Of a stretch of 26,485 bases of DNA, positions 1 to 25,347 are shown in pieces (positions within the stretch are counted from its first letter, which is position 1; each line of letters opens with the position of its first letter). The translations under genes and the position numbers were made by a program. This DNA is from Verrucomicrobiota bacterium (lineage in GTDB: Bacteria; Verrucomicrobiota; Verrucomicrobiia; Limisphaerales; JAFMIX01). The stretch covers positions 1-26,485 of the forward strand of contig JBJOPC010000339.1 of assembly GCA_046050965.1 (NCBI GenBank). Reading direction: 5' to 3'. The notes below the pieces were generated by a model. The model ran no database searches and was not told where the DNA came from. It saw only the letters and a list, made by a program, of their open reading frames with translations.

Positions 1-624
1 CCGTTCCGCGACAAGGCCGAGTGGCCCAAGGAAAAATTCTCCGAGATCACCGTCGAACGCGCGCTCAAACATCCCTCGTGGGTCATGGGCCGCAAGATCA
101 CCATTGATTCCGCCACGCTCTTCAACAAAGGCCTGGAGATGATCGAAGCCCGCTGGCTGTTCGACATCGAGATGGCACGCGTCGGCGTGGTCGTGCACCG
201 GCAGAGCATCGTGCATTCGATGGTCGAGTTCGTGGACGGCTCGCTCATCGCGCAGCTATCCACGCCGGACATGTGCCTGCCCATCCAATACGCCCTCACC
301 TACCCCGCGCGCGCCGCCAGCGACCGCGTGCAGACCGACTTCCCCAAGATCGGCACGCTCACCTTTGAAGAGCCAGACACCGACCGCTTCCCCGCCATCG
401 AACTCGCGCGCCGCGCCGGCGACACCTGCGGCACGATGCCCGCCGTGTTCAACGCCGCCAACGAAGTGGCCGTGGACGCCTTCGTGAACCGCCGCCTCAA
501 CTTCCCGCAAATCACCGCCACCGTCCGCCGCGTGATGGACGCGCACAAAGTCGTGGAACACCCGACGCTGGAAAAGATTCTGGAAGCGGATGCGTGGGCG
601 AGGAAAGAGGCGGCGAAGATTTAA
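1..624 (+). CDS. dxr: 1-deoxy-D-xylulose 5-phosphate reductoisomerase, C-terminal part (gene begins upstream of window)
   Basis: Frame 1 is open from base 1. Translation (...ALKHPSWVMGRKITIDSATLFNKGLE...SIVHSMVEFVDGS...) matches the conserved C-terminal half of Dxr/IspC. Stop TAA 622-624. Confidence 0.85.
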   Translation, partial: PFRDKAEWPKEKFSEITVERALKHPSWVMGRKITIDSATLFNKGLEMIEARWLFDIEMARVGVVVHRQSIVHSMVEFVDGSLIAQLSTPDMCLPIQYALTYPARAASDRVQTDFPKIGTLTFEEPDTDRFPAIELARRAGDTCGTMPAVFNAANEVAVDAFVNRRLNFPQITATVRRVMDAHKVVEHPTLEKILEADAWARKEAAKI

Positions 625-632
625 CGCAAAGG

Positions 633-1439
633 ATGAAAACCCATTTACTGACTTGGAATCCTCGGCGGTGGCATTGGGACGACCTTGCTGAAACCAGCGC
701 AAAAACTTTGGCTGGCAAAGGAGTTATTGGAAGCTGGAGCTGCGGCAACACGAAGAACATTGCTCCCGGAGACAGAATCTTTTTGATGAGAGTCACCGAA
801 GAACCGAAAGGAATCATTGGTTCTGGCTGGGTTACAAACGCGCCTCACTTGCGGCTGCACTGGGATGCAGAGAAAGCCGCAGCGGGAGTGAAATGCCTTG
901 GCATTGACGGTGAGTGGGAGCGGCTAATCAATCCAGCGGTTGATGCTCCACTCGGCATGCAAGAGCTTCAAAAGGGAAAGTTGGCCGATTTTAATTGGAC
1001 GCCGCAATCATCCGGCACACGAATTCCCGACGACATCGCAGATGAGTTGGAAGAGAAGTGGGCAGCTCATGTTGGGAAAACTTCTACGGCAATCGTGACC
1101 ACAGACACGGAGCTTGCTGCGATGGAAGGTGCAGAAAGAATGGCTCTCGTCCGACACCGCAAGCGCGAGCAATCTCTTCGAGTTGCCAAAGTTGCTGCGG
1201 CTAAACAGTCCGGAAACGGCAGACTCAAATGCGAAGTGCCGGGCTGCGGATTTGATTTCGAGGCGGTGTATGGTGAACTCGGACGCGATTACGCCCAAGT
1301 GCATCACCTCAACCCGCTCGGTGACCGGACGACTCCAAGCCAAACAAAACTCGCCGACCTCGCCGTGGTCTGTGCGAATTGCCACGCGATGATTCATCGT
1401 GGCGGAAAATGTCGCCCTCTCGACAAGTTGATTCCATGA
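633..1439 (+). CDS. EVE/PUA-like domain fused to C-terminal HNH nuclease; putative modification-dependent (type IV-like) restriction endonuclease
   Basis: Supplied ORF is 594..1439. The probable start is ATG 633, preceded by AAAGG and 8 nt after the dxr stop. The N-terminal ~150 aa show a PUA/EVE-like pattern (LLTWNPRRWHWDDL ... PGDRIFLMRV ... GIIGSGWV). The C-terminus has a canonical HNH motif (CEVPGCGFDF ... HHLNPLGDRT ... VCANCHAMIHRG). Confidence 0.6.
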   Translation: MKTHLLTWNPRRWHWDDLAETSAKTLAGKGVIGSWSCGNTKNIAPGDRIFLMRVTEEPKGIIGSGWVTNAPHLRLHWDAEKAAAGVKCLGIDGEWERLINPAVDAPLGMQELQKGKLADFNWTPQSSGTRIPDDIADELEEKWAAHVGKTSTAIVTTDTELAAMEGAERMALVRHRKREQSLRVAKVAAAKQSGNGRLKCEVPGCGFDFEAVYGELGRDYAQVHHLNPLGDRTTPSQTKLADLAVVCANCHAMIHRGGKCRPLDKLIP

Positions 1440-1557
1440 AAACTTTACGGCGGCGCGCACTTTTAATTTTGTAGGCGTCGAGGTGACGAGACTTATTTCA
1501 AATCCCCGGTTTTAGCTTTTCAGTCAGAGACTCCTCACGTCGTCTCCTACATCTTGT

Positions 1558-1745
1558 CCTCTCTCACCCCGGCCCTCTCCCATCCGCCTTCGCTGCGCTA
1601 CGGCGCGACCAGCGGGAGAGGGAGAAGTGGTTCCTGCGTCAGGCGATTTGTGCGCGCCGGGATTCGCCATGCGGTTCGCCAAATTCACCGCGCCGCGCCG
1701 ACGCGGTTTCCCTCTCCCCGGGGGAGAGGGATCAAGGGTGAGGGC
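1558..1745. repeat. Cluster of CCCTCTCCC / GGGAGAGGG inverted motifs, including a perfect 23-bp palindrome at 1709-1731 (tccctctcccc ggg ggagaggga)
   Basis: Read directly. ctctcaccc is at 1561-1569, ccctctccc at 1573-1581, gggagagggag at 1614-1624, the palindrome at 1709-1731 and gggtgaggg at 1734-1742. The region lies between convergent genes. Confidence 0.5.
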
Positions 1746-1864
1746 GAGCGTCAAAACAAACTTACCGCTACAATCCCAAATCCTGTCGTTTTTTGCCCAT
1801 CCAACCCGCCGGAAGGGGTGAAAACCACGTTTTTTGCTGTTTTTTAGGGTTTTTGAGGGAAAAT

Positions 1865-2034
1865 GGGTTCCCGTGAGCACCTGACGGGAGTTCGGCTGGG
1901 GTTCACGGGGAGTCGGGAGAGGTTGACGGGAGTCCGTCTGGGGTTCACGGGAGTTCGGCTGGGCTTGACGGGGAGTCGGGAGCAGCTCAAGGGGAGCGGG
2001 GAGCAGTTGGCGGGAGTTCGGGTGGGGCGGACGG
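1865..2034. repeat. Degenerate 21-bp tandem repeat array (about 8 units, consensus approx GGAGTYCGGSTGGGSTTSACGG)
   Basis: Contiguous units gagttcggctggggttcacgg / ggagtcgggagaggttgacgg / gagtccgtctggggttcacgg / gagttcggctgggcttgacgg / ggagtcgggagcagctcaagg / ggagcggggagcagttggcgg / gagttcgggtggggcggacgg. No spacers, so not CRISPR. It sits immediately downstream of the waaA stop. Confidence 0.7.
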
Positions 2035-2043
2035 GCAATCGCC

Positions 2044-3426
2044 CTAGCCGCGCGGCTGGGTGTAGAGTTCGCCGCCTTCGAGGTGTTGCATAATCATCTC
2101 GAGGGTGCGACCGAGTGAACCTTCGTTGTTTTGCACTACGGCGAGCGCGTTTTTGCCCAACTCGGCGCGGCGCGGGGCGTCGGCGAGGAGTTCGGCGAAA
2201 ACTTTTTCCAACTCGGCGGCGTCGCGCACTTGCACCGCGCCGCGCGCCTCGACAAAGCTGCGGGCGATGTCCACGAAGTTCTGCATGTTGGGACCAAAGA
2301 CCATCGCCTTGCCCAGCGCGCCCGGTTCGATGGGATTTTGCCCGCCTTCCGCCGTGAGGCTTTTGCCGACGAACACGACGGTGGCGGGTTCGTAAAAAAA
2401 CCGCAGTTCGCCGGTGGTGTTCACCAGCAGGCATTCGACTTCGCCGGGTTGGAACTGCGAACTGACGGTCAGCTCGCTGCGGAAAACAAACTTCACGCCG
2501 CGCGACTTGAGTTCGTTGCCGACGCTCTTGGCGCGCTCGAAATGGCGCGGCACGAGCACGAGGAACAGTTCGGGAAATTTTGCTTTGAGCCGCTGGAATT
2601 GCTCGGCGAGCAAGGCTTCTTCGCCATCGTGGGTGCTACCGGCGACGAGGATTTTTGCCCCAGCGGGCAAGGCGAGTTGACGCAGCAGCGCAGGCACATC
2701 GAGCGAACGTTGGCCGTCAATCTTCGCGGCGTCGAACTTGAGATTGCCGACAATCTGCACGGCGTCCGCGCGGCAACCGAGCGCGCGCACCCGCGCGGCG
2801 TCGGCCTCGTGCTGCACGCCCACGCCAGCGAAGGAGGCGAAGAGCGGCTGGAATAATTTCGGGAAGCGCGTGTAGCCGCGAAACGATTTGTCGGAGAGCC
2901 GGGCGTTGACGAGGAAGGTGGGAATGCCGAGTGCCTGCGCGCGCCACAGGAAGTTCGGCCAGATTTCCGCTTCGATGAGCACGATGGCTTCGGGTCGCAG
3001 CAAGCTGAACGCACGGTTGACGTAGGCGCGGCGGTCAATGGGGTAATAAATTTTGCCGATGTGCGCCGGAAGTTTTTTCTGCAACTCGCCCATGCCGGTG
3101 GTCGTGGTGGTGGAGACGATGATTTTGGCGTTGGGCAGACGCGGCTCAAGCGCGCGGATGAGTTGGGTGCACAGATTCACCTCGCCGACGCTGACGGCGT
3201 GGAGCCAGATGACGTGGCGGTTGGTGATGGACTGCTTGAACTTGCTGTCGTATTTGCCGAAGCGCTGGGCGAAGCCAGCGGTCCAGTTGCCGCGCCGCCG
3301 CATCCGCCAGAAATAATACGGCGCGGATAGCACGAAAAAAATCGTGAACAGGATGTTGTAAAAAAGTCGCACGGATGAAACCCAATTGACGCGTGTGAGT
3401 TTCCGCCAAGATGAGAGCCGCTTCAA
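2044..3426 (-). CDS. waaA: 3-deoxy-D-manno-octulosonic acid (Kdo) transferase
   Basis: 460-aa ORF with an N-terminal hydrophobic anchor. It has the HAVSVGE motif and KdtA/WaaA-like glycosyltransferase architecture throughout. Confidence 0.85.
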   Translation of the reverse strand: MKRLSSWRKLTRVNWVSSVRLFYNILFTIFFVLSAPYYFWRMRRRGNWTAGFAQRFGKYDSKFKQSITNRHVIWLHAVSVGEVNLCTQLIRALEPRLPNAKIIVSTTTTTGMGELQKKLPAHIGKIYYPIDRRAYVNRAFSLLRPEAIVLIEAEIWPNFLWRAQALGIPTFLVNARLSDKSFRGYTRFPKLFQPLFASFAGVGVQHEADAARVRALGCRADAVQIVGNLKFDAAKIDGQRSLDVPALLRQLALPAGAKILVAGSTHDGEEALLAEQFQRLKAKFPELFLVLVPRHFERAKSVGNELKSRGVKFVFRSELTVSSQFQPGEVECLLVNTTGELRFFYEPATVVFVGKSLTAEGGQNPIEPGALGKAMVFGPNMQNFVDIARSFVEARGAVQVRDAAELEKVFAELLADAPRRAELGKNALAVVQNNEGSLGRTLEMIMQHLEGGELYTQPRG

Positions 3427-4254: not shown

Positions 4255-6276
4255 ATGCCACGTTTTTTTCTCCTGCTCGCCGCACTGCTGCTCGCGTTGC
4301 CCGTCAGTGCTGCTGACTCCACGCCTGCCGACGCCGCGCTTGCCGATTACTTCCACCACGAAACCGCCGCGCTCGCCGAACGCAGCCCCACGCCGATAAA
4401 AAATCCCGCCGACTGGCCGACGCAGCGTGCCGAGTTGCGCGCGCAATTGCAGGAGATGCTCGGCCTCACGCCGCTGCCCGCGCGCACGGACTTGCATGCG
4501 ACCGTCACCGGCGTGTTCACGAACGACGCGTTCACGATGGAAAAAATTTATTTTGAGGCGTCGCCCAAACTTTATTGCACGGCGAATCTTTTTATCCCGC
4601 GCGGCCTCACTAATCCCGCGCCGACGGTGCTTTACGAGTGCGGCCATTTTCGGCTGTTCACCAACGGCATCAGCTACGGCAACAAAGCCGCGTATCAACT
4701 CGACGGTGCGTGGTTCGCGCGTCACGGCTACGTCTGCCTCGTCACCGACACCTTGCTTGCGGGCGAAGTGCAAGGCACACACACCGGCACGCGCGACAAA
4801 GGTCAATGGTGGTGGAACTCACGCGGCTACACGCCAGCGGGCGTGGAAGCGTGGATTGGCATTCGCTCGCTCGACTATCTCTGCACACGACCGGAAGTGG
4901 ACACGAATCGCTTCGGCGTAACCGGCCATTCCGGCGGCGGCGCATATTCGTGGACCGTCACCGCACTCGACGACCGCATCAAAGTCGCCGCCCCGCTCGC
5001 AGGCATGGCCGACCTCACGAGTCACATTGACGACGGCGTGATTGACAGCCATTGCGACTGCAATTTTTTCCAAAACATCTACCGCTGGGATTTTCCGCAA
5101 CTCGCCGCACTCGCCGCGCCGCGTCCGCTGCTGCTCGGCGGCACGGACAACGACCGTTTGTTCAACCTGTCTAACACCGTTCGCCTCCACGAAAAAATCC
5201 GCCGCGTGTATGCGCAACTCGGCGCGACCAACAATTTTGCGCTCGCCCTCGCGCCCGGCCCGCACGATGAAGTGCCGGAACTGCGCCTCGCTGTGCTGCG
5301 CTGGTTCGATCGCCATCTCAAAGGCGTAACCAAGGCGAACGAGCAGCCCATCACCGTGGACGCCGTGAAATATTTTACGCCCGAGCAAGTCCGCGTGTTC
5401 GTCACGTTGCCGACAGACGCCATCAACACGAACATCGCCGAGACGTTTGAGCCAGATTTTCGTAGCCGCCGACGTGAGGAGGCGCAAACCAATTCTTCGA
5501 CGTCCGATAAAACAGGTCAGAGCCTTCTCACGTCGGCGGCTATGCCGGAGGAATTGCGCGCCACGCTACGCGCGAAAGTTTTCGGCGGTTGGCCGGACGA
5601 TACACTGCCGCTGGAACCGAAGCGCGTCTTTGCCACCGAACGCGACGGCGTGAAATTCAGCGCGTGGGATTTCGCCAGCCAGCACGACGTGCCGCTGCGA
5701 CTTTACCTGTTTGAAAATGCCAAAACTCCGGCGGCCAATGTTTCGCTCACAGTTTTGGACGCTGCCGGTTGGACGAACTGGTTCAGTTCTGTCAGCGCCA
5801 AATTCAGCAACGAGTTGGCAGATGAAATAAAGACTGTTGGTGGCCGCGCGTTGCCGCGCGCGGAGGCTGACCAGCAGGTCAGCCCTACCAGCGCAAAGAC
5901 CCTCGCCTTCCTCGCGCCGCGCGGCGTGGGTTTGATCGCGTGGTCGGGCGACGACAAGGCACTCACCAAAATCCGCCGCCGCTTCATGGCCGTGGGCGAG
6001 ACGCTTGACTCTATGCGCGTGTGGGACATCCGCCGCGCGATTCAAACCCTGCACTTCGTCCGCGACAGCGAAACTGCGACTGTTGAATTAAAAGCCGACG
6101 GCGCGATGGCCGTGAACGCGCTCTACGCCGCACTGTTCGAGCCGGGCGTAAAAAAACTTTCGCTCACCAACCTGCCCGCGTCGCAAATCACCGGGCCAGA
6201 TTATCTCGGCGTGTTGAAATACACCGACGTGCCGCAAGTGCTGGAAGCGGTGAAGCAAACCGCGCGCGTGGAGTAG
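4255..6276 (+). CDS. Secreted alpha/beta-hydrolase (acetyl-xylan-esterase / dienelactone-hydrolase-like, GHSGGG nucleophile elbow) with a large extra C-terminal domain
   Basis: Signal peptide MPRFFLLLAALLLALPVSAA. G-x-S-x-G motif TGHSGGGAYSW. Length 673 aa. The C-terminal ~300 aa resemble an esterase-family N-lobe (weak). Confidence 0.55.
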   Translation: MPRFFLLLAALLLALPVSAADSTPADAALADYFHHETAALAERSPTPIKNPADWPTQRAELRAQLQEMLGLTPLPARTDLHATVTGVFTNDAFTMEKIYFEASPKLYCTANLFIPRGLTNPAPTVLYECGHFRLFTNGISYGNKAAYQLDGAWFARHGYVCLVTDTLLAGEVQGTHTGTRDKGQWWWNSRGYTPAGVEAWIGIRSLDYLCTRPEVDTNRFGVTGHSGGGAYSWTVTALDDRIKVAAPLAGMADLTSHIDDGVIDSHCDCNFFQNIYRWDFPQLAALAAPRPLLLGGTDNDRLFNLSNTVRLHEKIRRVYAQLGATNNFALALAPGPHDEVPELRLAVLRWFDRHLKGVTKANEQPITVDAVKYFTPEQVRVFVTLPTDAINTNIAETFEPDFRSRRREEAQTNSSTSDKTGQSLLTSAAMPEELRATLRAKVFGGWPDDTLPLEPKRVFATERDGVKFSAWDFASQHDVPLRLYLFENAKTPAANVSLTVLDAAGWTNWFSSVSAKFSNELADEIKTVGGRALPRAEADQQVSPTSAKTLAFLAPRGVGLIAWSGDDKALTKIRRRFMAVGETLDSMRVWDIRRAIQTLHFVRDSETATVELKADGAMAVNALYAALFEPGVKKLSLTNLPASQITGPDYLGVLKYTDVPQVLEAVKQTARVE

Positions 6277-7930: not shown

Positions 7931-8006
7931 AGAAAATGTTTAACCACGAAGCAGACGAAACACACGCAAAGTTTTTTAGACAACCCGTCCGGCGCGAATT
8001 CGCCAA

Positions 8007-8034
8007 TTGACAGTTGGCGTTTCAAAAATAGACT
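8007..8034 (+). promoter_or_regulatory. Putative sigma70-type promoter for rpsU (TTGACA, 16 nt spacer, TAGACT); the 10-bp palindrome gcgaattcgc lies just upstream
   Basis: TTGACA at 8007-8012 and TAGACT at 8029-8034, about 69 nt upstream of the rpsU ATG. The palindrome ggcgcgaattcgcc at 7991-8004 may be an operator. Confidence 0.35.
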
Positions 8035-8102
8035 TCGCGCCCGGCTCAAAAAGGAAACCGTGCCCGCACGCGATTCCGAGCCCAGGAAGGATGTGACATA
8101 AT

Positions 8103-8300
8103 ATGAGCGAAATTAAACTCAAGAAAGGCGAGCCAGTGGATAAAGCCCTGCGCCGCCTCAAAAAGAAAGTGGACCGCGAAGGCACGTTGAAAGACGTCCG
8201 CGCGCGCCGCACTTTTGAGAAACCCAGCGCGCGTAAACGTCGCAAGATGAAAGTCTCGAAGTTCTCCGCCATGCTGGCCCGCCGCTACGCTGACTTGTAA
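8103..8300 (+). CDS. rpsU: 30S ribosomal protein S21
   Basis: 65 aa, basic. The pattern ...ALRRLKKKVDREGTL...VRARRTFEKPSARKRRK... is typical of S21. Confidence 0.85.
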   Translation: MSEIKLKKGEPVDKALRRLKKKVDREGTLKDVRARRTFEKPSARKRRKMKVSKFSAMLARRYADL

Positions 8301-8320
8301 TTCCTTCCAGGAATTTTCCG

Positions 8321-8364
8321 CCGGGCGCAGTTCAATTGATTTGAACCGCGCCCGGTTTTTTGTT
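8321..8364 (+). terminator. Rho-independent terminator downstream of rpsU
   Basis: 15-bp stem ccgggcgcagttcaa / ttgaaccgcgcccgg with one mismatch, followed by tttttgttt. An additional small palindrome aattccttccaggaatt lies at 8299-8315. Confidence 0.65.
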
Positions 8365-8401
8365 TCCCTCCCTTTGCCTCAAGCCCAACGCCTAATCAAA
8401 A

Positions 8402-9316
8402 ATGTATTCGCTCTCTACCTGCTGGAACTCGCACCGTCACACGGACGGCCGCGCCATGCTGCGCGAGGTGCGGGACATGGGCTTTGAATTCGCGGAGCTT
8501 TCACACGGCACACGCATCAGTCTTTTGCCGGGCATCGTGGACGCGGTGGACGCGGGCGAGATGCAGATTTCCAGCGTGCATAATTTCTGTCCGCTGCCGA
8601 TGGGCGTGAACCATTCCGCGCCGAACCTCTACAAATTTTCTGCCGACCGCGAGCGCGAGCGGGAACTGGCGTTGCGCCACACGTTCAAGACGCTGGAATT
8701 CGCTTCGCGTGTCAAAGCCAAAGTCGTGGTGCTGCATCTCGGCGCGGTGGAAATGCGCGATTACACCGACACGTTGCTGGAAATGGTCGGCAAGAACCAA
8801 CGCGAGACCGCCAAATACGACGACCTCTGCGCCGAAGTCATCGAGAAACGCGAGTCGCGCAAAGAAGCCGCCGTCGAACGCGTCTACGATTGCCTGCGGA
8901 AAATAATTCCCGAAGCCGAGAAGCGCGGGCTGAAACTCGGCTGCGAAAACCGCGAGGCTGTAGAAGAAATTCCCTTCGAGAGCGATTTTAATTTTCTGTT
9001 CCGCGAACTGAAAAGCCCCGCGCTCGTCTACTGGCACGACACCGGCCACGCGCAAATCAAAGAGAATCTCGGCTTCATCCATCACGCGCTGCACTTGGAA
9101 TCCATGCGCGACCGGTTGTTTGGTTTTCACATTCACGACGTGCAATTTCCCGGACAAGACCACTGCCAACCCGGCACGGGCTGCATTGATTTCGCTGCGT
9201 TGAAACCGTTCGTGAAGCCGGAGCATCTGAAGATTTGCGAGTTTAGTCCCAAGCTCAAACCGGAAGAAGTCAAAGCCGGTGCAGCGCACATTAAAGGTAT
9301 CTGGGGCGAGGATTAA
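8402..9316 (+). CDS. Sugar phosphate isomerase/epimerase (xylose-isomerase-like TIM barrel family)
   Basis: 304 aa with a pattern typical of the AP-endonuclease-2 / xylose-isomerase-like TIM barrel fold (…VVLHLG…, …KLGCENRE…, …HDTGHAQI…). Confidence 0.65.
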   Translation: MYSLSTCWNSHRHTDGRAMLREVRDMGFEFAELSHGTRISLLPGIVDAVDAGEMQISSVHNFCPLPMGVNHSAPNLYKFSADRERERELALRHTFKTLEFASRVKAKVVVLHLGAVEMRDYTDTLLEMVGKNQRETAKYDDLCAEVIEKRESRKEAAVERVYDCLRKIIPEAEKRGLKLGCENREAVEEIPFESDFNFLFRELKSPALVYWHDTGHAQIKENLGFIHHALHLESMRDRLFGFHIHDVQFPGQDHCQPGTGCIDFAALKPFVKPEHLKICEFSPKLKPEEVKAGAAHIKGIWGED

Positions 9317-15223: not shown

Positions 15224-15686
15224 TTTTCCCCGGCATTTTCAGATAGCTCTCACGCGAAGATTGCCACAGACGCAAAGGTTTTCCAGAAATCCGATTTTTC
15301 TTTGCGCCCTTCGCGCGCTTTGCGTGAGGGAAAACCATCTTCCGCTTCAACTCTTTTGGCCTGCTCCTGTGGACGTTACGCGGCAGCCCATTGACGGTTC
15401 GCCAGACCGTGAGAGTATCGCTCCGCAGCAGCCGAAGTCTGGCTTCCTTCCAGAAGTCAGACGCGGGAGACCCAAAATCCCCAGCAATGGGGACGGGGCG
15501 CACGAAGTCAGGCAACTGATTTCAAGGCCACTTTCAAGGCCAAGCCCGACAGCTAATCTCGCAGGCATTTGGAAGGGCGAGCCTCTGACCTGCGAAGTCC
15601 GCAGTCTTCAAGTTCACCCCAACAGTAACGCGTCGCGTTGGTAGCGACGGTCATAGACCGCCGCTACAGCGCGACCACAACGGAGA

Positions 15687-17486
15687 ATGGGTATGAAAAC
15701 AAACATGGTCATGTTGGCAGTCGGTGAACTCGGTCTGCACGTCGGTTGGTTCTGGTGGCTCACGGGCTTCGTCGCGCTCGTATTGCTCTCCAGTCTGGTG
15801 CTGATTCGCGAACGGCAGGTGGGCATCGTGGTGAAACGCTTCGGCTCGCGTTCGCTCGCGCCCGGACACCTCATCGCGCTTGGCGGCGAAGCAGGTTTGC
15901 AAGCGGACACCCTCGCGCCCGGTTTGCACTTCGGTTATTGGCCGTGGCAATTCCGCGTCATCAAAGTTCCCGTCACCGTCGTCGAGCAAGGGGAAATTGC
16001 GCTCGTCATGGCGGCGGACGGCGCGGCGATGCCATCCGAACACATCCTCGGCAAACGCGTAGAGTGCGACGACTTCCAAGACGCGCGCAAATTCCTCGCG
16101 GGCGGCGGCGAGAAAGGACGCCAACTCGGCATCCTCACCGCTGGCACATACCGCATCAACACCTCGCAATTCACCATCATCACGTCGGCGACGGCGCACG
16201 CGCACGGCATGATGCCGGAGCAATTGCTGTTGCATCGCGTGGAGTCCGACATGGTGGGCGTTGTCACCACGCTCGACGGCCAGCCGATTCCCGCCGGTGA
16301 AATCGCCGGGCCGACCGTCACCGCACACGACAGCTTCCAGAACGCGCAGGCGTTTCTCGACGGCGGTGGCAGCCGTGGCTTGCAGGAGCAAATCCTGTTG
16401 TCCGGCGCGTGGAATTTGAATCCGTGGTTCGTGCAGGTGGAGCAAGTCCCGATGGTGCAGATTCCCATCGGCTATGTCGGCGTCGTCATTTCGTTCGTCG
16501 GCAAGGCGCACGAAGACGTCAGTGGCGCGGACTTCAAACACGGCGACCTCGTCAACGCCGGTCACAAAGGCGTGTGGGTCACGCCGCTGTATCCCGGCAA
16601 ACATCCGCTCAACACGCGCGTGATGAAAGTTGAACTCGTGCCGACCACGAACATCGTGCTCAACTGGGCGAATCGCACCGAGGCGCATAATTATGACTCG
16701 AAATTGCAATCCATCACCGTGCGTTCGCGCGACGGATTTGCGTTCAACCTCGACGTGTCGCAGATCATCCACGTCGGCGCGCTCGATGCGCCGAAGGTAA
16801 TTTCCCGCGTCGGCTCGATGCAAAATCTCGTGGATCACGTTTTGCAACCGACCGTCGGAAATTATTTCCGCAACTCCGCGCAAGACTTCACCGTGCTCGA
16901 CTTCCTCGGCGCACGTAGCCAACGGCAAGTCGAAGCGGCGGCGCATATCCGCGAAGCCATCGGCGCGTATGACGTGCAAGCGATTGACACACTCATCGGC
17001 GACATCAATCCGCCCGCCGAACTGATGACCACGCAAACCGATCGCAAGATTGCCGAGGAACAGCGCAAGACGTTCGAGGTGCAGGAAGCCGCGCAGATTC
17101 AGCGGCAACAACTCGTGCGCCAGACCTCGCTCGCCGACATCCAACAACAAGTCGTCGGCGCAGAACAAGGCGTGAACATTGCCGAGTTGAAAGCCAACGC
17201 CAGTGTGAAACACGCGACCGGCGAAGCTGAAGCCACGCGCCTCCGCGCCCTCGGCGAGGCCGAAGCCATCCGCGCTACCGGTGATGCCAAAGCGCAGGCC
17301 TATCGCGCGGGCGTCGAGTCCATCGGCACGCAGGGCTACACCGTCATGCAGCTCATGCAAATCATCGGCGAGCGCAACGTCCGTATCGTCCCCGACGTTT
17401 CCGTGACCGGCCAAGCCGGCGGCAATGGAATCGTGGACGGCTTGCTCGGCGTGATGCTAAAAGAACAAACTAAAAAAGCTGCGTGA
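15687..17486 (+). CDS. Flotillin-like SPFH/band-7 membrane protein (FloT/YqiK-like)
   Basis: N-terminal TM helix, then an SPFH start ERQVGIVVKRFG. C-terminal alanine/glutamate-rich coiled-coil repeats (ATGEAEATRLRALGEAEAIRATGDAKAQAYRAG). About 600 aa, as for bacterial flotillins. Confidence 0.7.
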   Translation: MGMKTNMVMLAVGELGLHVGWFWWLTGFVALVLLSSLVLIRERQVGIVVKRFGSRSLAPGHLIALGGEAGLQADTLAPGLHFGYWPWQFRVIKVPVTVVEQGEIALVMAADGAAMPSEHILGKRVECDDFQDARKFLAGGGEKGRQLGILTAGTYRINTSQFTIITSATAHAHGMMPEQLLLHRVESDMVGVVTTLDGQPIPAGEIAGPTVTAHDSFQNAQAFLDGGGSRGLQEQILLSGAWNLNPWFVQVEQVPMVQIPIGYVGVVISFVGKAHEDVSGADFKHGDLVNAGHKGVWVTPLYPGKHPLNTRVMKVELVPTTNIVLNWANRTEAHNYDSKLQSITVRSRDGFAFNLDVSQIIHVGALDAPKVISRVGSMQNLVDHVLQPTVGNYFRNSAQDFTVLDFLGARSQRQVEAAAHIREAIGAYDVQAIDTLIGDINPPAELMTTQTDRKIAEEQRKTFEVQEAAQIQRQQLVRQTSLADIQQQVVGAEQGVNIAELKANASVKHATGEAEATRLRALGEAEAIRATGDAKAQAYRAGVESIGTQGYTVMQLMQIIGERNVRIVPDVSVTGQAGGNGIVDGLLGVMLKEQTKKAA

Positions 17487-24981: not shown

Positions 24982-25347
24982 ATGAAAATGGAACTACGAA
25001 AATCGTTTCAGTTTGAGGCGGCACATCTGTTGCCGAAATTACCGAAAGCGCACAAGTGCCGTCGGCTGCACGGCCACAGCTTCAAGGTGGAGATTGCCGT
25101 CACCGGCGAGTGCGACCCGGAGCTGGGTTGGGTGATGGACTATGCGGACATCAAAGCGGCGTTCAAACCGCTCTGGGAAAAACTCGATCACCGCTACCTC
25201 AACGAAGTCGCGGGCTTGGAAAATCCCACGAGCGAAGCCGTGGCGGTGTGGATTTGGCGCAAGCTTAAGCCGAAGCTGCCGTTGCTCACGGAAGTCGTCG
25301 TGGCCGAGACCTGCACCGCGCGCGCGGTGTATCGCGGGGAGCCTTGA
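24982..25347 (+). CDS. queD: 6-carboxy-5,6,7,8-tetrahydropterin synthase (6-pyruvoyl-tetrahydropterin synthase family)
   Basis: 121 aa. Zinc-binding C-x3-HGH motif (CRRLHGHSF). Conserved EAAHLLP near the N-terminus and LNEV... in the second half. Confidence 0.8.
   Translation: MKMELRKSFQFEAAHLLPKLPKAHKCRRLHGHSFKVEIAVTGECDPELGWVMDYADIKAAFKPLWEKLDHRYLNEVAGLENPTSEAVAVWIWRKLKPKLPLLTEVVVAETCTARAVYRGEP

What the first reader, a model, noticed from the sequence alone, without database searches (positions are those of the whole stretch)
633..1439. EVE/PUA-like::HNH fusion inserted between dxr and waaA, a candidate modification-dependent restriction (defence) enzyme
Published comparative genomics of EVE/PUA-like domains predicts a role in recognising modified bases when these domains are fused to nucleases. 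The HNH motif here is intact (C-x2-C ... HH ... N ... C-x2-C-H). The gene sits directly after dxr with an 8-nt gap. In many bacteria dxr lies in the conserved uppS-cdsA-dxr-rseP cluster, and a solitary nuclease there is unusual; this looks like an insertion into a housekeeping cluster.
Basis: partly seen in the sequence, partly recalled or inferred. Interest (0 to 1): 0.55.

Follow-up and report, generated by a model that had tools for sequence, protein, structure and literature searches.

The report
Solitary EVE-HNH type IV restriction gene
A single, horizontally acquired gene after the housekeeping gene dxr encodes a modified-base reader domain fused to a DNA-cutting domain, most likely a defence enzyme against foreign DNA with modified bases; the enzyme class is already described, so this is a clean new member rather than a new kind of system.

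Summary
The ORF is real: window 633-1439 (+), 268 aa, 8 nt after the dxr stop. It belongs to a large family under strong purifying selection (dN/dS about 0.05).

- **Nuclease domain.** Residues about 194-268 are a McrA-like Cys4-zinc HNH with every catalytic residue invariant.
- **Acquisition.** GC3 is 0.53 against 0.73-0.87 in neighbouring genes. Only 1 of 67 related Verrucomicrobia carries the gene after dxr. That slot otherwise holds rseP, or rsmI alone or preceded by a probable Dam-type R-M pair or other cargo, or toxin-antitoxin or IS inserts.

Two details were wrong: the first cysteine pair is C-x4-C, not C-x2-C, and the moniker Asn is replaced by Asp242.

EVE-HNH modification-dependent endonucleases are already characterised (TspA15I, VcaM4I, CmeDI). 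This protein has no detectable sequence similarity to VcaM4I and uses a different HNH subtype. It is a new member of a known kind, and which modification it reads is unknown.

The parts
85..624 (+). 3' part of dxr (DXP reductoisomerase). It is the upstream housekeeping gene and the probable source of transcription.
   Evidence: PF13288 1.6e-42 and PF08436 4.6e-11. The full cdsA - 53-aa ORF - dxr arrangement is seen on the source contig L001.
625..632 (+). 8-nt gap between dxr and the EVE-HNH gene (CGCAAAGG). No room for a separate promoter was found.
   Evidence: Sequence read directly. No sigma-70-like promoter in 1-2200. Relatives diverge exactly at the dxr stop.
633..1439 (+). EVE-HNH gene, 268 aa plus stop: a candidate solitary type IV (modification-dependent) restriction endonuclease.
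   Evidence: GC 0.539 and GC3 0.532. dN/dS about 0.05.
633..1082 (+). N-terminal EVE/PUA-like sensor domain (aa 1-150). Invariant residues are L5, W8, N9, P10, G28, W35, R48, F50, G60, G65, H76, S127 and G128.
1083..1211 (+). Low-confidence linker (aa about 151-165) followed by a long conserved basic helix (aa 166-193; E165, G166, H175, R178, E179, R183, K186 invariant) leading into the HNH domain.
   Evidence: AF2 secondary structure and pLDDT. Conservation. VcaM4I has an analogous auto-inhibitory linker helix (PMC7897488).
1212..1436 (+). C-terminal McrA-like Cys4-zinc HNH nuclease domain (aa 194-268): C200/C205/C247/C250, H224-H225, D242, H251, H255.
1440..2043 (.). Non-coding spacer between the gene and convergent waaA. 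Homology to the L006 orthologous locus ends about 24 nt after the stop codon. The spacer contains a weak terminator-like hairpin (1476-1488), GGGAGAGGG-type repeats and a 21-nt tandem array (1884-2030).
2044..3426 (-). waaA/kdtA (Kdo transferase), the convergent downstream neighbour. It is not adjacent to dxr in any of 80 relatives.
   Evidence: PF04413 4.9e-59. No waaA within 6 kb of dxr in L006-L085.

Best explanation
The gene encodes a solitary type IV (modification-dependent) restriction endonuclease, with no partner methyltransferase found nearby.

Inferred mechanism, by analogy with VcaM4I:
- The N-terminal EVE domain binds DNA, flips out a modified base and holds it in a conserved aromatic pocket. 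Candidate pocket residues are W35, H76/W77 and W66.
- This binding relieves inhibition or positions the enzyme. A probable dimer of the C-terminal Cys4-zinc HNH domains then cuts the DNA nearby. H225 would act as the general base, and H224, H251 and H255 as metal ligands.
- Host DNA is spared because it lacks the modification.

What is shown: the domain folds, intact catalytic residues, purifying selection, foreign base composition, and patchy presence in a variable slot that in relatives holds a probable R-M pair or toxin-antitoxin cassettes.

What is inferred: nuclease activity, base flipping, the modification read (5hmC/5mC is the default guess), and co-transcription with cdsA-dxr.
For: Fold:
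- AF2 model with pLDDT 84.9.
- Foldseek aligns the full length to VcaM4I at E 2.3e-4.

Sequence:
- The N-domain is 42% identical (2e-30) to aa 237-376 of a Sinorhizobium plasmid AAA_5 ATPase. That segment passes the Pfam EVE cutoff (35.2 bits), and the next gene is McrC (3e-57). The same segment hits EVE structure 2gbs at E 0.003.
- The N-domain profile finds 3412 representative clusters. Sampled architectures are fusions to HNH, to SRA+HNH and to McrB-like AAA_5, plus one TPR fusion and two with no nuclease domain detected.
- HNH residues are invariant, and the family profile hits EcoKMcrA.

Functional constraint: dN/dS is 0.046-0.059.

Accessory and mobile status:
- GC3 is 0.53 against 0.73-0.87 in neighbours.
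- The gene is present after dxr in 1 of 67 relatives.
- Copies 79-83% identical sit at a different locus, between a Gfo/Idh/MocA gene and lpxB.
- The same slot holds a Dam-type methyltransferase plus an unknown 394-aa ORF in L007, a ParE toxin-antitoxin pair in L006, and nothing in L008.

No DNA methyltransferase was detected in the 26-kb window.

Precedent: EVE-HNH enzymes TspA15I, VcaM4I and CmeDI cut 5hmC/5mC DNA and restrict T4gt (PMC6765204; PMC7897488). EVE-HNH and EVE-McrB were catalogued as type IV architectures (bioRxiv 10.1101/2020.08.06.240630).
Against: - There is no experimental data for this clade.
- On the window protein alone, both Pfam hits are below the gathering cutoff. PADLOC and NCBIfam give nothing significant.
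- No sequence-level link to VcaM4I was found. The HNH subtype also differs: VcaM4I uses H224/N241/D250 and no zinc site is mentioned for it.
- The pocket residue mapping is by sequence collinearity only, not by superposition.
- The tight 8-nt coupling to a housekeeping operon is not typical of defence islands. So are the very low dN/dS and the positional conservation next to lpxB in three other contigs. These features leave room for a domesticated role.
- No full-length copies were found in phage collections, and only one distant full-length match (27% identity, a Lactococcus plasmid) in the plasmid collection.
Confidence: 0.75

Rival explanations
1. The architecture is the same, but the sensor reads a modification other than 5mC/5hmC, for example N6-methyladenine, 4mC, 5hmU or a hypermodified base. 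The enzyme would still be a type IV restriction enzyme, with a specificity not yet described for EVE-HNH.
For: - The N-domain has no detectable sequence similarity to VcaM4I.
- PUA-like domains of other clades read 6mA, for example ScoA3V and TgaMcrB-YTH (PMC6765204).
- In relative L007 the same slot carries a Dam-type m6A methyltransferase instead. That would fit mutually exclusive alleles.
Against: - The best structural matches are EVE proper, including THYN1 with 5mC DNA.
- All characterised EVE-HNH enzymes prefer 5hmC/5mC.
- No direct evidence bears on specificity either way.
Confidence: 0.3
2. The protein is a stand-alone selfish or homing HNH endonuclease, or a toxin or abortive-infection effector. 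Its N-domain would merely bind DNA or RNA and would not discriminate self from non-self by modification.
For: - The gene is a bare cassette in intergenic slots next to conserved genes (dxr, lpxB), as free-standing homing endonuclease genes are.
- Neighbouring slot cargo in relatives is mostly toxin-antitoxin modules.
- EVE domains also occur in toxin-antitoxin contexts.
- The C-terminal half alone matches many plasmid and phage HNH endonucleases.
Against: - The N-domain is shared with McrB-like type IV systems and with SRA-HNH fusions.
- No antitoxin partner gene or flanking repeats were found.
- Strong purifying selection acts on both domains.
- No target-site duplication or intein/intron context is present.
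Confidence: 0.1
3. The protein is a domesticated housekeeping nuclease or RNA-modification reader that is co-expressed with envelope or isoprenoid genes.
For: - The gap to dxr is 8 nt and no promoter was found.
- dN/dS is about 0.05.
- Both known positions are next to lipid A/Kdo genes: waaA here, and lpxB in L003-L005.
- Stand-alone bacterial EVE proteins are thought to bind modified RNA.
Against: - The gene is absent from 66 of 67 close relatives at this locus, including genomes with 95-97% identical Dxr.
- GC3 is foreign.
- The nuclease fusion and its kinship to the McrB sensor point to DNA restriction.
Confidence: 0.05

Closest known systems
TspA15I / VcaM4I / CmeDI group of EVE-HNH modification-dependent restriction endonucleases (PDB 6yex; PMC6765204, PMC7897488)
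   Different: No sequence similarity is detectable by phmmer or family profile at E<=10, and structural alignments show 12-15% identity. VcaM4I's HNH uses H224/N241/D250 with Ser before the first His, and no zinc site is mentioned for it. This protein has a compact McrA-like Cys4 HNH with an HH doublet, D242 in the Asn position, and H251/H255. Specificity is untested.
EcoKMcrA (PDB 6ghc), 5-methylcytosine-specific restriction enzyme A
   Different: No part of the N-terminal half aligns to McrA. Here the N-domain is EVE. From my own knowledge, not tested here, McrA's N-terminal 5mC reader has an unrelated fold.
EVE-McrB / McrC type IV systems (e.g. Sinorhizobium sp. K101 pK101b WP_275598542/WP_275598543; also YTH-McrB of T. 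gammatolerans, PDB 6p0g)
   Same: The sensor module is the closest sequence relative found outside the family: 42% identity over 142 aa, E 2e-30. It presumably has the same reader function.
   Different: The effector is entirely different: an AAA_5 GTPase motor plus a separate McrC nuclease, against a fused HNH here. No AAA+ or McrC gene is present in the window.
SRA-HNH enzymes (TagI 6ghs, ScoMcrA/ScoA3IV, MsiJI)

Membership tests
EVE domain (Pfam PF01878, PUA-like superfamily) | Sequence match to the family HMM above the gathering cutoff | tested here: inconclusive
   The window protein scores 13 bits against a cutoff of 23. 13 of 28 family members hit at E<=0.1, best 1.4e-5. P0131 scores 24.0 bits. 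The 42%-identical McrB-like segment scores 35.2 bits and hits EVE structure 2gbs at E 0.003. Membership therefore holds by transitive homology, not directly.
EVE domain (Pfam PF01878, PUA-like superfamily) | PUA-like beta-barrel fold with flanking helices | tested here: met
EVE domain (Pfam PF01878, PUA-like superfamily) | Conserved aromatic or hydrophobic pocket for a flipped modified base (2eve W26/Y82; VcaM4I P24/W82/Y130) | tested here: inconclusive
   Invariant W8, W35, F50 and H76, and nearly invariant W66 and W122, exist. W35 lines up with the WDGVRN tryptophan of 2eve/2gbs through the bridging alignment. No 3D superposition of pocket residues was possible with these tools.
HNH endonuclease (Pfam PF01844, beta-beta-alpha-Me) | HMM match and catalytic His / structural Asn / metal-ligand His, with a Cys4 zinc site in this subtype | tested here: met
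EVE-HNH modification-dependent REases (architecture class; Bell et al. 2020, Lutz et al. 2019) | N-terminal EVE sensor fused through a linker to a C-terminal HNH in one polypeptide | tested here: met
   class definition.
EVE-HNH modification-dependent REases (architecture class) | Cleavage stimulated by modified cytosine; restriction of phage with modified DNA | not testable with these tools
   This needs in vitro digestion and phage plating, as done for TspA15I and VcaM4I.
EVE-HNH modification-dependent REases (architecture class) | Solitary gene, no cognate methyltransferase nearby | tested here: met
   No DNA methyltransferase was detected among genes of the 26-kb window or the 10 kb upstream on L001. 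Lutz et al. report the same tendency.
TspA15I/VcaM4I/CmeDI sequence group | Recognisable sequence homology to the characterised members (they share about 46-50% identity with each other) | tested here: not met
   The VcaM4I chain 6yex is not hit by phmmer or by full-length or N-domain family profiles at E<=10. Structural alignments show 12-15% identity. The HNH active-site variant differs.
EcoKMcrA orthologue | McrA-type N-terminal 5mC-binding domain plus C-terminal HNH | tested here: not met
   Only aa about 182-266 align to 6ghc, and the N-domain is EVE. The 'McrA' labels in JGI annotations reflect the HNH part only.
McrBC system | AAA+ GTPase McrB plus McrC nuclease | tested here: not met
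   Only the sensor domain is shared. No AAA_5 or PF10117 gene is present in the window.

The most novel reading that the evidence does not exclude
This Cys4-HNH/EVE clade, with thousands of uncharacterised members, reads a modification not yet assigned to EVE-HNH enzymes, such as 6mA or a hypermodified base. In addition, the 3' end of dxr in this Verrucomicrobia lineage would be a dedicated cassette-exchange hotspot. There a modification-dependent nuclease and a Dam-type R-M system would behave as mutually exclusive alleles, with new cargo arriving together with a replacement dxr 3' end, as the 118-nt duplication in L006 suggests.
Probability: 0.12. Interest if true: 0.5.

Novelty: new member of a known kind. 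Interest (0 to 1): 0.27.

Why it matters
The result gives a well-supported functional call for a large, mostly unannotated or mislabelled ('McrA', 'HNH endonuclease', hypothetical) protein family from environmental Verrucomicrobia and other phyla. The family's N-domain is found in 3412 representative clusters.

It also shows that the EVE sensor of McrB-type systems is shuffled onto a McrA-type HNH. This combination is distinct from the characterised VcaM4I group.

Practically, such enzymes are candidate reagents for mapping modified bases. Ecologically, the gene marks a small variable defence and toxin-antitoxin slot downstream of dxr.

None of this changes current concepts. It extends a known class.

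Tried and rejected
- **Sequence link to VcaM4I.** I tried phmmer of the protein, a full-length family profile and an N-domain profile against all PDB chains. None reached 6yex at E<=10. A Lactococcus plasmid EVE-HNH also hit only McrA. I therefore could not obtain the VcaM4I sequence for residue-level pocket mapping, and the Lutz et al. supplement is not held.
- **NCBIfam.** No family matched.
- **PADLOC.** Only insignificant hits appeared (mREase_IV, E 0.036).
- **Viral and plasmid collections.** IMG/VR gave no confirmed relative. Among GenBank phages only the HNH half matched, so there is no evidence that the gene is phage-borne. PLSDB plasmids gave one distant full-length match (Lactococcus plasmid, 27% identity over 96% of the query) and otherwise only partial matches.
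- **Element boundaries.** I searched for att-like direct repeats or inverted repeats bracketing the gene in the window. None were convincing.
- **Promoter.** No sigma-70 promoter lies ahead of the gene. The scan does not cover non-canonical promoters.
- **Composite alignment.** It was rerun without that sequence.
- **waaA as the ancestral neighbour.** Rejected: no relative has waaA within 6 kb of dxr. The closest clade has rsmI there, and most relatives have rseP.

Full report
**1. Observation**

The window carries an ATG-initiated ORF at 633-1439 (+) of 268 codons plus TGA. It starts 8 nt after the TAA stop (622-624) of a gene whose product is the C-terminus of DXP reductoisomerase (PF13288, 1.6e-42).

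The next gene is convergent: waaA/kdtA at 2044-3426 (-) (PF04413, 4.9e-59). About 600 nt of non-coding DNA separates it from the ORF.

A longer GTG-594 reading exists. Homologues begin MKT(Y/H)LLTWNP, which supports ATG 633.

The ORF is not a chance one:
- 1375 database proteins match at E<=1e-3, and many are full length at 50-91% identity.
- Pairwise dN/dS against four orthologues is 0.046-0.059.

**2. The C-terminal domain**

On this single sequence Pfam HNH scores 20.1 bits, just under the 21.4-bit cutoff. Across the family, 27 of 28 members hit it, with a best E-value of 1.9e-7.

Invariant residues are C200, C205, H224, H225, C247, N249, C250, H251 and H255.

The only PDB sequence relative is E. 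coli McrA (6ghc), which aligns over aa about 182-266 (E 0.37 single sequence, 0.01 with the profile). In that alignment the McrA Asn of H-N-H falls on the nearly invariant D242.

**3. The N-terminal domain**

Pfam EVE is only a hint on this sequence (13 bits, E 0.1). Three independent lines establish the domain.

(i) *Family-level hits.* Thirteen of 28 family members hit EVE, best 1.4e-5. The family representative P0131 passes the cutoff.

(ii) *Structure.*
- The AF2 model built from the family alignment is confident: mean pLDDT 84.9, and 81-94 over aa 1-150.
- YTH follows at about 9.5, ASCH at 9.2, the EVE-HNH restriction enzyme VcaM4I at 9.1, and McrB N-terminal sensor domains at 6.2-6.6.
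- Foldseek agrees, and aligns the whole protein to VcaM4I (E 2.3e-4).

(iii) *A sequence bridge.*
- A tblastn of plasmids found that aa 2-143 are 42% identical (BLASTP 2e-30) to aa 237-376 of a 718-aa 'AAA family ATPase' on Sinorhizobium plasmids.
- That segment passes Pfam EVE (35.2 bits) and lies upstream of an AAA_5 module.
- The next gene, overlapping by 4 nt, is McrC (PF10117, 3e-57).
- The same segment hits EVE structure 2gbs at E 0.003.

**4. The sensor as a shuffled module**

An N-domain-only profile finds 3412 representative clusters (50% identity level) at E<=1e-3, and 645 at E<=1e-30. Sampling ten proteins with unusual lengths gave these architectures:
- five end in an HNH domain, three of them with extra N-terminal extensions and one with an added SAD/SRA domain and HNH_2 (P0146);
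- two are McrB-like AAA_5 proteins (P0212, P0238);
- one is a TPR fusion (P0248);
- two show no recognisable partner domain (P0250, P0223).

Most of these partners are type IV restriction contexts.

**5. Genomic context and mobility**

The gene is compositionally foreign. Its GC is 0.539 and GC3 0.532. Eight neighbouring genes have GC3 of 0.73-0.87.

On the source contig the order is cdsA, a 53-aa ORF, dxr, EVE-HNH, then convergent waaA.

I fetched 80 dxr loci from related Verrucomicrobia (subdivision 3, Limisphaerales, Pedosphaera) with Dxr 79-96% identical. Sixty-seven have at least 1.2 kb of sequence downstream of dxr. Among these:
- 5 have an insert before rseP, including HicAB (L040), a PIN/VapC pair (L046) and an IS transposase (L064).
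- Only L006 has the EVE-HNH gene (95% aa identity).
- None has waaA near dxr.

In the closest clade the gene after the slot is rsmI, and the cargo varies:

| Locus | Dxr C-terminal region identity | Content between dxr and rsmI |
|---|---|---|
| L008 | 95.5% | nothing (8-nt gap) |
| L007 | 97.2% | 394-aa ORF with no Pfam hit, plus a Dam-type N6A methyltransferase (PF05869, 3e-15) |
| L006 | 96.1% | ParE-type toxin-antitoxin pair, a second copy of the last ~118 nt of dxr, then EVE-HNH; the rsmI that follows is truncated |
| L014 | 95.2% | 2.8 kb including an Ig-domain protein |

Synonymous divergence of EVE-HNH between the window and L006 (dS 0.50) is similar to that of dxr among these genomes (dS 0.25-0.48). 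The gene was probably already in this slot in a recent common ancestor and was then lost or replaced in sister lineages.

Copies 79-83% identical occur at an unrelated site, between a Gfo/Idh/MocA gene and lpxB, on three other contigs.

No full-length copy is in phage or viral collections. No bracketing repeats or separate promoter were found. Expression by read-through from dxr is inferred, not shown.

No DNA methyltransferase was detected in the window or 10 kb upstream.

**6. Mechanism**

The best-supported reading is a solitary modification-dependent (type IV) restriction endonuclease. The steps below are inferred by analogy with VcaM4I (PMC7897488).
- In VcaM4I the EVE domain flips 5mC or 5hmC into a hydrophobic pocket formed by P24, W82 and Y130.
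- The HNH domains dimerise.
- The inter-domain helix auto-inhibits the nuclease.

Here a long conserved basic helix (aa 166-193; H175, R178, E179, R183 and K186 invariant) precedes the HNH. It may play a comparable DNA-binding or gating role.

Candidate pocket residues are the invariant W35 (aligned with the WDGVRN tryptophan of canonical EVE proteins), H76/W77 and W66. This mapping is inference only.

The modification read is unknown. 5hmC/5mC is the default by precedent (PMC6765204). The near-equal structural similarity to m6A-reading YTH domains and the lack of sequence similarity to VcaM4I leave other specificities open.

**7. Comparison with known systems**

The EVE-HNH architecture was catalogued by comparative genomics (bioRxiv 10.1101/2020.08.06.240630). 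It was validated biochemically and structurally for TspA15I, VcaM4I and CmeDI.

This protein works like those enzymes but is not a member of their sequence group:
- VcaM4I is not reached by any sequence or profile search.
- Its HNH variant differs. It uses H224/N241/D250 with Ser before the first His, and no zinc site is mentioned for it.

The present nuclease is McrA-like, and the present sensor is closest to EVE-McrB sensors. It is therefore best described as a distinct clade within a known class: an EVE(McrB-type)::Cys4-HNH(McrA-type) fusion.

The frequent JGI label 'McrA' is correct only for the nuclease half.

**8. Verdict**

Novelty is modest: a new member of a known kind. I set interest at about 0.27.

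The value lies in a clean annotation for a large environmental family. A secondary point is the small, recurrently reused cargo slot downstream of dxr.

Noticed in passing
L006:6668-6783 and L006:7299-7417: In the one relative that shares the gene, the last ~118 nt of dxr are present twice. They flank a 66-aa ORF plus a ParE-like toxin (PF24732). The second, orphan copy resembles the window's dxr end, and the first resembles L007's. This suggests the toxin-antitoxin cassette arrived together with a replacement dxr 3' end, with one-sided homology anchoring.
   Followed up: partly
L007:2386-4319: The same dxr-rsmI slot in a relative with 97% identical Dxr holds a 394-aa ORF with no Pfam hit plus a Dam-type N6-adenine methyltransferase (PF05869, 3e-15). 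This is probably an R-M pair, and a possible alternative 'allele' to the modification-dependent enzyme.
   Followed up: partly
L040:7190-7641; L046:3381-4219; L064:7429-8049: More distant relatives carry HicAB, a PIN/VapC pair or an IS DDE transposase between dxr and rseP. The region downstream of dxr is therefore a recurrent landing site for small selfish or defence cassettes.
   Followed up: partly
L001:3649-4584 (-), about 5.4 kb upstream of the gene, outside the window: A 310-aa protein has only a GmrSD_N/DUF262 domain (PF03235, 4.8e-23). It lies between glycine dehydrogenase and a pectin-degradation gene, and may be a second solitary type IV-like component in the same genome.
   Followed up: no
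window:1884-2030: A G-rich 21-nt tandem array of about 7 copies (higher-order period 63) lies immediately 3' of the waaA stop. GGGAGAGGG-type short repeats occur at about 1570-1735 in the same spacer. Their function is unknown.
   Followed up: no
L003, L004, L005 (gene at about 8001-8813 in each): Copies 79-83% identical lie between a Gfo/Idh/MocA oxidoreductase gene and lpxB on three contigs. Both known placements are thus next to lipid A/Kdo genes (lpxB there, waaA here). This is probably coincidence, but it is unexplained.
   Followed up: no
window:15148-15220 and 15420-15582: A tRNA gene and a c-di-AMP (ydaO-type) riboswitch (54.6 bits against a gathering score of 38) lie upstream of an SPFH/Band-7 protein gene at 15687-17486.
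   Followed up: no
P0146 (442 aa): One relative combines this EVE-like domain with a SAD/SRA domain (1.2e-51) and HNH_2. That puts two PUA-superfamily readers in one nuclease.
   Followed up: no
window:4120-4191: A 29-nt-arm inverted repeat, 86% complementary with a 14-nt loop and AT-rich, lies just upstream of the 673-aa hydrolase gene at 4255.
   Followed up: no
window:20232-24832: LuxE-like acyl-protein synthetase and LuxC-like acyl-CoA reductase genes flank a YkuD-domain protein and an MFS transporter. A QueD/PTPS gene follows at 24982-25347.
   Followed up: no
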